Positions 44,266 to 45,216 of a stretch of 49,576 bases of DNA are shown here, piece after piece; the first letter of the stretch is position 1; each line of letters starts with the position of its first letter. The notes under the pieces are model-generated. The model made no database searches and was not told the origin of the DNA. It saw nothing but the letters and a program-made list of their open reading frames with translations. The DNA lies in the sequence record NC_016158.1; one strand, 5' to 3'. The stretch comes from Escherichia phage HK639. Both the position numbers and the translations under genes were made by a program.

Positions 44266-44330
44266 TGAACAAATGAGCAAACTAATTCGTATATGTTGCC
44301 ATTGTTGTGTGTAACATGAATAAATTCCAA

Positions 44331-44355
44331 GCCCCGCCATCGTGCGGGGCTTTTT
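44331..44355 (+). terminator. tR'-like intrinsic terminator downstream of Q
   Basis: GCCCCGC-CATCGT-GCGGGGC followed by TTTTT, about 65 nt after the Q stop. Confidence 0.8.
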
Positions 44356-44362
44356 CGTTTCA

Positions 44363-44437
44363 GGGTCAGAAGCACAGCGGTTGTGCGTTCGGCTGTTAAC
44401 CGAATGGTCGAAGGTTCGAATCCTTCCTGTCCCGCCA
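44363..44437 (+). tRNA. tRNA-Asn (GUU)
   Basis: Hand-folded cloverleaf: acceptor GGGTCAG/CTGTCCC (one T-T mismatch), D-arm GCAC-AGCGGTT-GTGC, anticodon arm TTCGG-CTGTTAA-CCGAA, T-arm GAAGG-TTCGAAT-CCTTC, G-CCA. A at position 8 is unusual. Confidence 0.75.
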
Positions 44438-44441
44438 ATTC

Positions 44442-44517
44442 TGCATCTGTCGTAGTTTGGGAATTACGTCTGGCTTCCAAGCTGATGATGCGGGTTCGAT
44501 TCCCGCTGCCCGCTCCA
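44442..44517 (+). tRNA. tRNA-Gly(UCC)-like sequence, probably degenerate
   Basis: Good T-arm GCGGG-TTCGATT-CCCGC, 3' acceptor TGCCCGC-T-CCA, D-arm CGTA...TACG, loop CTTCCAA. But the 5' acceptor (TGCATCT) does not pair and the anticodon stem is weak. Confidence 0.35.
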
Positions 44518-44714
44518 GTTTAAGCTTTTCGGTCTGCGATGATGGGGTCCCCGGAGTGACTGAAAAGCGACCTAGTTTTGAATGGGCGCTGCTTTTTGCA
44601 AAATTGCTGTGTGAAAATGCTGACCTTTGGGTTCAGCGCTCATCCAAAAGCATCTCGTTAAAATCCAGTTAACCTCGGGTGGTTTGTTGGGTGAGGTGCC
44701 TCAAATTCAAATAG

Positions 44715-44736
44715 CCTCGCTTCGGCGAGGTTTTTT
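44715..44736 (+). terminator. Intrinsic terminator
   Basis: CCTCGC-TTCG-GCGAGG followed by TTTTTT. Confidence 0.75.
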
Positions 44737-44953
44737 CATTTGTAAGACAACCATCAGGAAGCAATGGCTAATCTCATTGACTGCAGGAATAAGTTCGGCG
44801 TAATTTATTTCTGTGGTGAATCCTTTCTAAGCGAAAGGGCGTTCCAGCCAACTGCTATCTGCAGGTATGCGCGCGACTTTGCTGGCTGGAGTAGAGTCAC
44901 CGGGAGGCACCCGGCACCATGACAACAACAATACAGTTTCAAATTCCTTGAGA

Positions 44954-44981
44954 GCCTGCCGTAAAAAGCAGGCCTTTTTTT
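44954..44981 (+). terminator. Intrinsic terminator
   Basis: GCCTGC-CGTAAAAA-GCAGGC followed by CTTTTTTT. Confidence 0.7.
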
Positions 44982-45137
44982 ATGAAATTGCGAACTGCTG
45001 CTACGCTTGAAAAGTGGGTTGAAGATAACTGCCTGATGGTTCTCCTGAACCATAGTGAATCAGCCTGATACTGTCTCACTCTGGTCAGTTAGCAAAACTC
45101 ACGACTACCTACCTTACTTACTAATAGTCACTCATTA

Positions 45138-45164
45138 GCCCGCCTTCAAAAGCGGGCTTTTTTT
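45138..45164 (+). terminator. Intrinsic terminator
   Basis: GCCCGC-CTTCAAAA-GCGGGC followed by TTTTTTT. Confidence 0.75.
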
Positions 45165-45216
45165 ATCTCCCCTCAATTTTTCTGAGAGGATTCGCAGCAA
45201 TAACAGAGGGGGCGTA

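What the first reader, a model, noticed from the sequence alone, without database searches (positions are those of the whole stretch)
44266..45216. 950-bp Q-to-holin gap: tR'-like terminator, tRNA-Asn, a degenerate tRNA-Gly-like gene, then three terminator-delimited ORF-free units
In Stx and other lambdoid phages the Q-to-S interval hosts tRNAs, toxins and small RNAs. Here it contains a strong terminator ~65 nt after Q (a short pR' leader RNA is likely) and a foldable tRNA-Asn(GUU) with an unusual A8 and a T-T acceptor mismatch. It also has a second tRNA-like sequence with a good T-arm, D-arm and UCC loop but an unpaired 5' acceptor strand. About 650 bp then lacks a convincing ORF and is punctuated by three strong intrinsic terminators (44715, 44954, 45138). 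Each segment of about 200 nt could be a discrete small RNA. Anti-sRNAs and pR'-derived sRNAs in EHEC prophages are precedents.
Basis: partly seen in the sequence, partly recalled or inferred. Interest (0 to 1): 0.5.

Follow-up and report, generated by a model that had tools for sequence, protein, structure and literature searches.

The report
Prophage late-gene leader packed with RNA genes
The gap between a prophage's late-gene switch (Q) and its lysis genes holds a phage-21-type promoter and terminator, a working tRNA, a hybrid tRNA left by recombination, one known prophage small-RNA gene, and two conserved structured RNA modules that no database names; the layout is familiar, only the last two parts are new.

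Summary
Most of it maps onto known things.

- **Late switch.** Q is a phage-21-type antiterminator. Its late promoter pR', two Q-binding repeats, a sigma-dependent pause element and tR' (44329-44355) align base for base with annotated phage 21. Phage 21 also places tRNA-Asn directly after tR'.
- **tRNA-Asn.** It is real. A8 and the U4·U69 mismatch are features of its lineage.
- **"Degenerate tRNA-Gly".** It is a chimera of two intact phage tRNA-Gly variants, joined in the shared anticodon loop. It marks a mosaic junction.
- **Unit 2.** This is an STnc100/PasD-family small-RNA gene (Rfam 52.6 bits, cut-off 47). It has a promoter conserved in position and its own terminator. This family is a known Hfq-binding prophage sRNA.
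- **Unit 1.** This is the 3' trailer of the tRNA-Gly operon. Its core (44575-44706) is a conserved structured RNA with compensatory base changes. It occurs in about 10% of complete E. coli genomes and is never annotated.
- **Unit 3.** This is a conserved, very stable RNA module. It is linked to this STnc100 subtype and always ends 38-108 nt before a holin gene. Support from covariation is weak.
- **Coding.** No conserved ORF explains the region.

Overall these are new members of a known kind, plus two candidate unnamed RNA families. No transcript was tested.

The parts
43768..44265 (+). Late antiterminator Q, phage-21 type (165 aa)
   Evidence: phmmer against PDB 6P18/6JNX (Q21): E 5.7e-46 over residues 2-156. 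Pfam Phage_antitermQ, 77 bits.
44255..44298 (+). pR' late promoter region. -35 TTGCAA 44255-60; Q-binding repeats AATGAACA 44264-71 and AATGAGCA 44272-79; -10 about 44279-84; predicted start A44291; sigma-dependent pause element TATGTTG 44292-98.
   Evidence: Column-by-column alignment with phage 21, where these elements are annotated (QBE ATTGAGCA+AATGAGCA, TSS, SDPE). Positions in the window are inferred by homology.
44329..44355 (+). tR' (T0): 9-bp stem with 7 G-C pairs, then a T-run. It ends a leader RNA of about 65 nt (44291 to about 44357).
   Evidence: Terminator scan. The leader folds at -26.5 kcal/mol, z -4.98. Phage 21 has a terminator at the same place. The stem is nearly identical to the IsrJ terminator of Gifsy-1.
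44363..44437 (+). tRNA-Asn(GUU) with encoded CCA, A8 and a U4·U69 mismatch
   Evidence: ARAGORN. Rfam 63.9 bits. The identical sequence is in 21 IMG/VR loci, and one variant has a compensatory U-A to C-G change in the anticodon stem. Phage 21 tRNA-Asn shares U4·U69.
44443..44517 (+). Chimeric pseudo-tRNA-Gly(UCC). The 5' half (to about 44480) comes from variant A; the 3' half (about 44481-44517) comes from variant B. The crossover lies in the shared anticodon loop GGCTTCCAA.
   Evidence: The 5' half is identical to the intact tRNA GCATCTG...CAGATGC found after tRNA-Asn in 29 IMG/VR contigs. The 3' 39 nt are identical to the intact tRNA GCGGGCA...TGCCCGC of L001 and L004. Not called by ARAGORN or Rfam.
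44518..44574 (+). Unit 1a: the segment that directly follows tRNA-Gly(B) in other phages
   Evidence: Alignments A2 and u1ctx. 43 of 66 unique unit-1b contexts have tRNA-Gly(B) within 170 nt upstream.
44575..44706 (+). Unit 1b: conserved structured RNA core with three main helices. No Rfam family matches it.
   Evidence: 98 related loci. Found in 536 of 5426 E. coli genomes, always unannotated. 11 of 38 pairs carry compensatory changes. 96.3% of cells are paired, against 5.3 +/- 1.4 compensatory pairs in shuffles (0/500) and at most 6 in slid controls. Frequent G·U pairs point to the + strand. z -3.84.
44713..44736 (+). T1: terminator ending unit 1 (GCCTCGC-TTCG-GCGAGGC, then T6)
   Evidence: In other lineages at least four unrelated terminators sit 20-39 nt after the conserved GGTGGTTTGTTGG tail.
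44777..44806 (+). Promoter of unit 2: -35 TTGACT 44777-82, 18-nt spacer, -10 TAATTT 44801-06
   Evidence: The hexamers are conserved and the spacer is variable in A1. 54 of 99 unique STnc100-family upstream regions have TTGACN-N17/18-TAnnnT, and in 53 of them it ends 8 nt before GGTGAATCC. Conservation rises sharply at 44800.
44813..44981 (+). Unit 2 RNA, about 169 nt: an STnc100/PasD-family sRNA. Core hairpin CCGGGAGGCACCCGG 44901-15; seed-like UUCCUUGAGAG 44945-55; terminator T2 44953-44981.
   Evidence: Rfam RF02076 hit at 44780-44985, 52.6 bits against cut-off 47. The 5' end is set by homology to the mapped PasD 5' end GCAUGGUGAAUCC. z -2.90.
44982..45165 (+). Unit 3: conserved RNA module ending in T3 (stem 45137-45158, T-run to 45164). 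Possible extended -10 TGCTACGCT 45000-08; predicted folded core 45014-45102.
   Evidence: 78 IMG/VR contigs, 72 of them with the STnc100 core within 330 nt upstream. 26 representatives at 63-95% identity. z -5.27. No covariation in register. Cognate versus permuted inner-helix test: 18/5000 and 198/20000. A holin of at least 3 Pfam families starts 38-108 nt after T3.
45166..45216 (+). Holin 5' UTR. It belongs to the holin module, not to unit 3.
   Evidence: Homology to units 2+3 stops at 45165-45169. The stretch 45155-45242 recurs before another holin_8 gene in L001.

Best explanation
The interval is the leader of the late operon of a mosaic lambdoid prophage. It was assembled from two modules joined inside a tRNA-Gly gene.

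**Module A (44255 to about 44480)** is a phage-21-type late switch.
- A constitutive promoter pR' carries two Q-binding repeats and a sigma-dependent pause element.
- Without Q, transcription stops at tR' and gives a leader RNA of about 65 nt.
- With Q, RNA polymerase ignores tR', T1, T2 and T3 and reaches the holin, endolysin and structural genes.
- tRNA-Asn is cut out of that read-through transcript.

**Module B (about 44481-45165)** arrived by homologous recombination in the anticodon loop of tRNA-Gly. The crossover left a hybrid tRNA that cannot fold. Module B has three parts.
1. Unit 1 is the 3' trailer of a phage tRNA operon. It contains a structured RNA (unit 1b) and the operon terminator T1.
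2. Unit 2 is an autonomous sRNA gene of the STnc100/PasD family, with its own sigma-70 promoter and terminator T2. It most likely makes an Hfq-dependent base-pairing RNA of about 169 nt in the lysogen.
3. Unit 3 is a conserved, stably folded RNA ending in T3. It is either a second small transcript or the read-through isoform of unit 2.

T1-T3 also act as insulators. Transcription that starts inside the leader, or leaks past tR', cannot reach the lysis genes unless Q has modified the polymerase.

**Shown:** the homologies, module boundaries, chimera, family membership of unit 2, promoter conservation, covariation in unit 1b, and absence of a coding signal.

**Inferred:** all transcript ends, Hfq dependence, Q read-through, and any trans-acting role of units 1 and 3.
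For: - **Late switch.** Q21 homology is E 5.7e-46. pR', QBE, SDPE, tR' and tRNA-Asn are collinear with the annotated phage 21 record.
- **Chimera.** Each half of the tRNA is identical to a different intact tRNA-Gly.
- **Mosaic boundaries coincide with the units**. L004 carries tRNA-Gly plus unit 1 only. L002 and L005 carry units 2+3 only, starting at 44775/6 and ending at 45166. L001 carries all of them at 92% identity behind an unrelated Q and in front of an unrelated holin.
- **Unit 2.** The Rfam STnc100 score is above the gathering cut-off. It shares the 5' end, core and pre-terminator seed region with PasD and with Fels-1 STnc100. The family promoter is conserved in position. Family members are detected by RNA-seq, Northern blot, Hfq crosslinking and RIL-seq.
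- **Unit 1b.** Covariation is seen on an alignment that was not fitted to the structure. Unrelated terminators occupy a fixed position.
- **Unit 3.** It is tightly linked to this STnc100 subtype and to the start of the lysis cassette. Its fold is unusually stable.
- **Non-coding.** There is no codon periodicity and no conserved ORF.
- **No other promoter.** No other consensus-like promoter lies between T3 and the holin.
Against: - No expression data exist for this element. Every transcript boundary is predicted.
- The unit 2 score (52.6) is only 5.6 bits above the cut-off, and its -10 hexamer (TAATTT) is weak by consensus. The generic promoter scan did not flag it, and it did not flag pR' either.
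- Unit 3 shows no in-register compensatory pairs. Natural recombinants such as L029 and L013 break its inner helix.
- Unit 1 has no recognisable promoter, so in this prophage it may be made only after induction or by leak-through of tR'.
- The related sequences are not independent, so shuffle-based significance is overstated.
- Some STnc100 copies carry ribosome footprints in EHEC, so a small-peptide role is not fully excluded.
Confidence: 0.7

Rival explanations
1. Only unit 2 is a gene. Units 1 and 3 are passive leader or trailer segments whose single function is termination (stacked insulators in front of the lysis cassette). Their conservation reflects recent horizontal spread of one block rather than selection on an RNA product.
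For: Homologues of the three-unit block are 80-100% identical and move as blocks. Unit 3 has no in-register compensatory changes. Recombinants break its inner helix. No promoter was found for unit 1.
Against: Unit 1b has 11 pairs with changes on both sides and 96% pairing on an alignment not fitted to the structure. It recurs in several different flanking contexts: after a tRNA, after an ORF, and before different terminators. Conservation in unit 3 is blockwise rather than uniform, and its fold is far more stable than shuffles (z -5.27). The partner-permutation test is weakly positive.
Confidence: 0.3
2. Units 2 and 3 are one gene with two isoforms. The promoter at 44777-44806 makes a short RNA ending at T2 and, by read-through, a long RNA of about 350 nt ending at T3. 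This would resemble PasA, which has an 85-nt major form and a 236-nt minor form.
For: 72 of 78 unit-3 loci have the STnc100 core within 330 nt upstream. Homology blocks always start at the unit 2 promoter and end at T3. PasA is reported with two 3' ends. Unit 3's candidate promoter is only an extended -10-like TGCTACGCT.
Against: T2 has a perfect stem and seven T's. The invariant TGnTAnnnT lies 6-8 nt before the first helix of unit 3, which fits an independent start. None of 114 other STnc100-core sites has the unit-3 motif downstream, so STnc100 does not need unit 3.
Confidence: 0.2
3. Small proteins explain the conservation, for example the 52-aa ORF at 44764-44922 (which has a plausible AGGAAG ribosome-binding site), the 82-aa antisense ORF at 44805-45053, or mini-ORFs inside units 1b and 2.
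For: The 52-aa ORF is intact in 29 of 56 homologues. RefSeq annotates an antisense 'hypothetical protein' over PasD1. Several EHEC STnc100 copies show ribosome footprints.
Against: Variable columns are spread evenly over codon positions: 45/42/43 and 55/58/57. 1-nt indels are frequent. SaltyDalty and Fraca keep the RNA but lose the start and frame of the 52-aa ORF. There is no Pfam hit. Its ATG lies upstream of the sRNA promoter.
Confidence: 0.05

Closest known systems
Phage 21 late regulatory region (Q21, pR', QBE, SDPE, tR', tRNA-Asn, tRNA-Thr, S21)
   Same: Same Q fold family. Same order of elements: two Q-binding repeats between -35 and -10, a -10-like pause element right after the start site, a terminator within about 50-65 nt, and tRNA-Asn with U4·U69 abutting the terminator.
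   Different: Q is only 45% identical. The spacer is 18 nt rather than 17, and the leader is longer with an extra 5' hairpin. The second tRNA is a broken Gly chimera, not Thr. About 700 nt of extra RNA modules lie before a different holin family.
STnc100 (Rfam RF02076), also known as EcOnc27/sRNA103, and its relative PasD1/PasD2
   Same: Unit 2 scores above the family cut-off. It lies between Q and the lysis genes on the late strand. It has the GGUGAAUCC 5' hairpin, the CCGGGAGGCACCCGG core, a U/C-rich stretch (UUCCUUGAGAG against PasD UUCCUUGUGAG) just before the terminator, and the family promoter. Its predicted size of about 169 nt compares with 172-173 nt for PasD.
   Different: It is a divergent subtype (52.6 bits, against 138 for the Fels-1 copy). 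It is not next to stx or the esterase gene. It is coupled to unit 3, which other subtypes lack. Targets are unknown.
sRNA genes at the pR' 'moron' site of EHEC prophages (Tree et al. 2014, PMC4104026), including the anti-sRNAs AsxR and AgvB
   Same: Same genomic niche and the same logic: small Hfq-binding RNAs inserted downstream of the Q-antiterminated promoter.
   Different: There is no convergent (opposite-strand) sRNA and no AsxR or AgvB match. The best hit is 17.6 bits against a cut-off of 56, on the wrong strand. All four terminators here face the same way.
IsrK, IsrJ and IsrI in the Q-holin interval of Salmonella Gifsy-1
   Same: Several terminated Hfq-binding RNAs and a tRNA lie between Q and the holin. 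The IsrJ terminator is almost identical to T0.
   Different: The window's leader scores 34.6 bits, below the IsrJ cut-off of 37. The similarity is limited to the 3' half. Gifsy-1 has a Q82-type antiterminator and an inserted C4/ant module.
tRNA-operon spacer or trailer RNAs (3'ETS-leuZ, RtT of tyrT); from my own knowledge, not tested here
   Same: Unit 1 directly follows a tRNA 3' end and ends at the operon terminator, so it would be released by tRNA processing.
   Different: There is no sequence or Rfam similarity to either. It is phage-borne. Here the upstream tRNA is a non-folding chimera, so processing may differ.
StxS and lambda 6S RNA (short pR'-tR' transcripts); from my own knowledge
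   Same: A constitutive short RNA ends at tR' in the lysogen.
   Different: No homology was tested or found. Lambda has no STnc100 or unit 3 match.

Membership tests
Q21-type late switch (phage 21) | Antiterminator homologous to Q21 | tested here: met
   E 5.7e-46 against PDB 6P18/6JNX, residues 2-156
Q21-type late switch (phage 21) | Two direct-repeat Q-binding subsites between -35 and -10 of pR' | tested here: met
   AATGAACA + AATGAGCA at 44264-79 align with the annotated ATTGAGCA + AATGAGCA of phage 21
Q21-type late switch (phage 21) | -10-like sigma-dependent pause element just after the start site, then an intrinsic terminator | tested here: met
   TATGTTG at 44292-98 aligns with the annotated SDPE. 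The terminator is at 44329-55.
Q21-type late switch (phage 21) | Q-dependent read-through of downstream terminators | not testable with these tools
   Needs in vitro or in vivo transcription assays
tRNA (Asn-GUU) | Cloverleaf scoring above the Rfam cut-off; anticodon GUU | tested here: met
   63.9 bits against 29. ARAGORN also calls it. A compensatory change is seen in a relative.
tRNA (Asn-GUU) | Universal U8 | tested here: not met
   A8 in the window and in all close relatives. Phage 21 has U8. Function is therefore inferred, not certain.
tRNA (Gly-UCC), for 44443-44517 | Paired acceptor and anticodon stems; detection by tRNA models | tested here: not met
   Not called. Acceptor GCATCTG does not pair with TGCCCGC. 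The anticodon stem has 2 mismatches. It is a chimera of two intact variants.
STnc100 (RF02076) | Covariance-model score at or above the gathering threshold | tested here: met
   52.6 bits against 47, full-length match
STnc100 (RF02076) | Located in a lambdoid prophage between Q and the lysis genes, on the late strand, with an intrinsic terminator | tested here: met
   Same context in Fels-1, SaltyDalty, Fraca and L001.
STnc100 (RF02076) | Own promoter at a fixed distance from the GGUGAAUCC 5' end | tested here: met
   TTGACT-N18-TAATTT ends 8 nt before GGTGAATCC. The same geometry is found in 53 family upstream regions.
STnc100 (RF02076) | Expressed, Hfq-associated RNA | not testable with these tools
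   Shown only for relatives
AsxR/AgvB anti-sRNAs | Short convergent sRNA with the conserved 3' region of about 42 nt | tested here: not met
   The only hit is AgvB at 17.6 bits (cut-off 56) on the + strand. There is no minus-strand terminator.
IsrJ (RF01393), for the pR' leader | Score at or above the gathering threshold | tested here: not met
   34.6 bits against 37. The match is carried by the terminator half.
PasA/PasC, for unit 3 (same position, next to the holin) | Sequence similarity to EPEC PasA or PasC; opposite-strand orientation | tested here: not met
   No match beyond T-runs on either strand. The unit 3 terminator faces the late direction.

The most novel reading that the evidence does not exclude
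Unit 1b and unit 3 are two undescribed families of structured RNA carried by enterobacterial lambdoid prophages. Unit 1b would be a phage tRNA-operon trailer released by tRNA processing, acting as a stable regulatory or sponge RNA. Unit 3 would be a dedicated RNA placed immediately before lysis cassettes of unrelated holin types, acting as a gatekeeper or regulator of lysis-gene entry. Together with STnc100 they would form a mobile three-RNA cassette that recombines into late leaders through shared tRNA genes.
Probability: 0.35. Interest if true: 0.6.

Novelty: new member of a known kind. Interest (0 to 1): 0.4.

Why it matters
The pR'-to-holin leader is where lambdoid prophages carry toxins, tRNAs and sRNAs that reprogramme the host.

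This window shows how such leaders are built. Ready-made RNA modules are swapped by recombination inside conserved tRNA genes, and here the crossover left a diagnostic hybrid tRNA.

It also points to two conserved RNA elements that annotation pipelines miss. One is present in about a tenth of complete E. coli genomes. The other always sits next to the lysis cassette.

If either is a functional RNA, it would add to the set of prophage-encoded regulators, and possibly to the control of lysis timing. If not, the region is still a clean example of stacked terminators insulating lysis genes from internal promoters.

Tried and rejected
- **PasA/PasC as identity of unit 3 or unit 1.** Sequences were taken from E2348/69 using the published coordinates. 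There was no similarity on either strand.
- **AsxR/AgvB anti-sRNAs and other Rfam families for units 1 and 3.** Nothing useful appeared at E up to 10. The whole window has only two Rfam hits.
- **IsrJ as identity of the pR' leader.** The score is below threshold. In Gifsy-1, IsrJ lies after an inserted ant module, not directly after Q.
- **Lambda's own tR'-to-S leader as a relic of units 2/3.** This was a resemblance I recalled from memory. Rfam at E up to 1 and model R1 with filters off found nothing in lambda, phage 21 or the Klebsiella phage with the closest Q.
- **In-register covariation for unit 3.** RNAalifold on a MAFFT alignment found none, and a CM-fitted alignment did not exceed controls. 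A first cognate versus non-cognate duplex test that included the shared outer helix was inconclusive. A cleaner test on the inner helix alone gave weak support.
- **A QBE-like string before unit 1a in L062.** This would have made unit 1 another phage's pR' leader. The upstream gene is a membrane protein, not Q.
- **Protein-coding explanations.** Rejected.
- **Promoter for unit 1.** None was found. The invariant TTGCAAAATTGCTGTG block pairs as RNA (helix B) rather than fitting -35/-10 geometry.
- **My own dinucleotide-shuffle script.** It timed out. I used the tool's z-scores instead.
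Full report
**Observation**

The interval 44266-45216 lies between a 165-aa ORF (43768-44265) and a holin gene (45217-45606; Pfam Phage_holin_8). A second holin and a GH19 endolysin follow.

The pattern scan finds four + strand terminator-like hairpins with T-runs:
- T0 at 44329-44352
- T1 at 44713-44732
- T2 at 44954-44973
- T3 at 45137-45158

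ARAGORN and Rfam both call tRNA-Asn(GUU) at 44363-44437, at 63.9 bits. The Rfam alignment confirms A8 and a U4·U69 mismatch. The sequence at 44443-44517 looks like a tRNA-Gly(UCC), but neither tool calls it.

The number of terminator-like sites alone is not unusual: 5 found against 2.4 +/- 1.6 in shuffles. Their significance comes from conservation of position in relatives, described below.

**The late switch is that of phage 21**

The upstream protein matches the solved Q21 antiterminator at E 5.7e-46. The fully annotated phage 21 record places the following after Q, in order:
- the pR' -35 element
- two Q-binding subsites (ATTGAGCA, AATGAGCA)
- the -10 element and the start site
- a sigma-dependent pause element
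- a terminator
- immediately afterwards tRNA-Asn, then tRNA-Thr, then the S21 holin

The window aligns with this column by column:
- -35 TTGCAA at 44255-60
- AATGAACA and AATGAGCA at 44264-79
- predicted start at A44291
- TATGTTG at 44292-98
- T0

The predicted leader of about 65 nt folds far better than shuffles (z -4.98).

The same tRNA-Asn sequence, with A8 and U4·U69, is present unchanged in 21 IMG/VR loci. One variant carries a compensatory change in the anticodon stem. Phage 21's tRNA-Asn also has U4·U69. These oddities are inherited traits of a maintained gene.

**The "degenerate tRNA-Gly" is a recombination scar**

Its last 39 nt are identical to an intact tRNA-Gly (GCGGGCA...TGCCCGC) found in an E. 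coli prophage (L001) and in phage PhiR47_1. Its first 38 nt or so are identical to a different intact tRNA-Gly (GCATCTG...CAGATGC). That variant follows this same tRNA-Asn in 29 IMG/VR contigs. The two variants share the anticodon loop GGCTTCCAA, and the switch occurs there.

The hybrid has mismatched acceptor and anticodon stems and should not fold. None of the fetched contigs carries this exact hybrid. The junction coincides with a change of relatives. To its left, the closest DNA comes from Klebsiella and Enterobacter phages. To its right, 44450-45169 is 92% identical to an E. coli prophage that has an unrelated Q and an unrelated holin.

**The three units move as modules**
- PhiR47_1 has tRNA-Gly plus unit 1 only, followed by its holin.
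- SaltyDalty and Fraca have units 2+3 only. Homology starts at 44775/6 and ends at 45166.
- L001 and L062 have all three units.
- Fels-1 has three STnc100 copies, a decayed tRNA-Gly and pieces of unit 1.

**Unit 2 is a known sRNA gene**

Rfam places 44780-44985 in STnc100 (RF02076) at 52.6 bits, against a cut-off of 47.

The literature describes this family as follows:
- It is a prophage sRNA related to PasD.
- It is encoded downstream of stx2 in Stx phages.
- It is detected by RNA-seq and Northern blot in EDL933.
- It is Hfq-bound, as EcOnc27/sRNA103.
- PasD1 and PasD2 are abundant 172-173-nt RNAs detected by Hfq RIL-seq and confirmed by Northern blot in EPEC.

The mapped PasD 5' end, GCAUGGUGAAUCC, aligns with 44811-44823. 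Upstream lie TTGACT (44777-82), an 18-nt variable spacer and TAATTT (44801-06), conserved in A1. Across the family, 54 of 99 unique upstream regions have TTGACN-N17/18-TAnnnT, and in 53 of them it ends exactly 8 nt before GGTGAATCC.

Conservation among 56 homologues jumps from about 0.65 to 0.9 at 44800 and stays high to 45165.

The stretch just before the terminator (UUCCUUGAGAG) matches the region that holds the proposed PasD seed (UUCCUUGUGAG).

I therefore predict an RNA of about 169 nt (about 44813-44981) that acts as an Hfq-dependent base-pairing regulator. Expression and targets are inferred.

**Unit 1 is a tRNA-operon trailer with a structured core**

Unit 1a (44518-44574) directly follows tRNA-Gly(B) in most relatives. 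43 of 66 unique contexts have that tRNA within 170 nt.

Unit 1b (44575-44706) is found in 98 fetched loci and in 536 of 5426 complete E. coli genomes, never annotated. In species-representative genomes it appears in Escherichia, Shigella, Enterobacter, Citrobacter and Yokenella. No Rfam family matches it.

On a plain MAFFT alignment of 22 non-redundant copies, RNAalifold predicts three main helices, with compensatory changes in 11 of 38 pairs. The pair count gives the following:

| Measure | Observed | Control |
|---|---|---|
| Cells paired | 96.3% | 91.9% in shuffles (0/500 reach the observed value); at most 55% with slid partners |
| Pairs changed on both sides | 11 | 5.3 +/- 1.4 in shuffles (0/500); at most 6 with slid partners |

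Many pairs are G·U, which would be A·C on the other strand, so the RNA is read in the late direction. The sequences are related, so these controls overstate significance. Even so, the helix C swaps (U-A/C-G to C-G/U-A in nine sequences) and the helix B U-A, U·G and C-G series are hard to explain otherwise.

In different lineages, at least four unrelated terminators sit 20-39 nt after the conserved tail. That argues for a selected 3' end.

I found no promoter. The invariant TTGCAAAATTGCTGTG block is part of helix B. The 5' homology boundary lies at the first helix. The simplest reading is that unit 1 is made as the tail of the tRNA transcript and ends at T1.

**Unit 3 is conserved, stable and always next to the holin, but its structure is not proven**

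Its motif occurs in 78 IMG/VR contigs, and 72 of them have the STnc100 core within 330 nt upstream. The reverse does not hold: none of 114 other STnc100-core sites has the unit 3 motif downstream. Unit 3 therefore accompanies only this STnc100 subtype.

After T3, the first ORF starts 38-108 nt downstream. It is a holin of at least three unrelated Pfam families: holin_8, holin_2_1 and holin_3_1.

The window copy folds at -48.2 kcal/mol with z -5.27. Single-sequence folds of 26 representatives repeatedly give the same architecture: an outer helix, a variable inner helix, two invariant hairpins and a terminator.

In-register covariation is absent. A permutation test that asks whether each copy's two variable segments pair better with each other than with those of other copies is weakly positive:
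- 27 distinct combinations: -9.48 against -8.19 +/- 0.48 kcal/mol, 18/5000 permutations
- 11 clusters: 198/20000 permutations

Natural recombinants break the helix.

An invariant TGCTACGCT (45000-08) fits an extended -10 element placed 6-8 nt before the first helix, but this is only a pattern match. Unit 3 could be an independent RNA, a read-through isoform of unit 2 (PasA has 85-nt and 236-nt forms), or a cis-acting gate.

**No coding explanation**

None of the mechanical ORFs is kept in most homologues. Variable columns are spread evenly over codon positions, and 1-nt indels are common. SaltyDalty and Fraca keep the RNA but not the 52-aa ORF. There is no Pfam hit.

**Mechanism proposed**

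In the lysogen:
- pR' fires and stops at T0.
- The unit 2 promoter makes the STnc100-like sRNA, which stops at T2.
- Anything that leaks past T0, or starts in unit 3, is stopped at T1 or T3, so the lysis genes stay silent.

After induction, Q loads at the paused complex and carries the polymerase through all four terminators. This follows from the established Q21 mechanism cited in the phage 21 record. It yields tRNA-Asn, the leader RNAs and the lysis and morphogenesis mRNAs.

The homologies and anatomy are shown. The transcripts and the read-through are inferred.

**Comparison and novelty**

The concept is established: sRNA genes and tRNAs sit in the moron site downstream of pR' (Gifsy-1 is another example). 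The late switch and unit 2 are new members of known families.

Three things appear not to be described:
- the chimeric tRNA as a visible crossover point
- unit 1b as a covarying RNA
- unit 3 as a holin-adjacent module

I found no names for the last two in Rfam 15, in RefSeq annotation or in the papers read. An absence from these sources is not proof that they are unknown.

**Verdict**

This is a moderately interesting case: mostly known biology, with two candidate RNA families worth an RNA-seq look.

Noticed in passing
window 45166-45216: In the holin 5' UTR, CUCCCCUC (45167-74) can pair either with UGAGAGGA (45184-91) or with the holin Shine-Dalgarno AGAGGGGG (45204-11). This suggests a structure that could mask the ribosome-binding site. 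The same UTR precedes holin_8 genes in L001 (8040-8121) and SaltyDalty.
   Followed up: no
window 33694-33763 (- strand): ARAGORN reports a 70-nt tRNA-Ile(GAT), but the Rfam tRNA model does not reach its threshold there. It may be a false positive or an attachment-site fragment.
   Followed up: partly
window 44903-44951: Inside unit 2, GGGAGG followed by AUG at 44919 opens a 10-codon mini-ORF (MTTTIQFQIP). Its length and sequence vary among close relatives, and it is absent from Fels-1 STnc100. An EHEC ribosome-profiling paper reports footprints on several STnc100 copies.
   Followed up: partly
L003 (Fels-1) 1900-3700: The Fels-1 Q-holin gap carries three STnc100-family copies (138, 59 and 83 bits), a decayed tRNA-Gly and two separated pieces of unit 1. 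It looks like an older, more rearranged version of the same cassette.
   Followed up: partly
L349 (Gifsy-1) 32800-34330: The terminator of Salmonella IsrJ is almost identical to the window's tR' stem (AAGCC(C/U)CGCCAUCGUGCGGGG). IsrJ lies on the late strand between an inserted C4/ant module and a tRNA-Arg. It may therefore descend from a tR' region.
   Followed up: partly
window 44582-44614: Unit 1b contains a 10-codon ORF (MGAAFCKIAV) that is kept, with mostly conservative changes, in several lineages. It lacks a Shine-Dalgarno sequence, and the same bases form helices A and B with compensatory changes.
   Followed up: partly
L204 (Klebsiella phage ST15-VIM1phi2.1) 3000-3570: The phage with the closest Q (91% aa) shares pR', the QBE and tR' with the window. 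It has no tRNA and a different ORF-free leader of about 480 nt with its own terminator before the holin.
   Followed up: no
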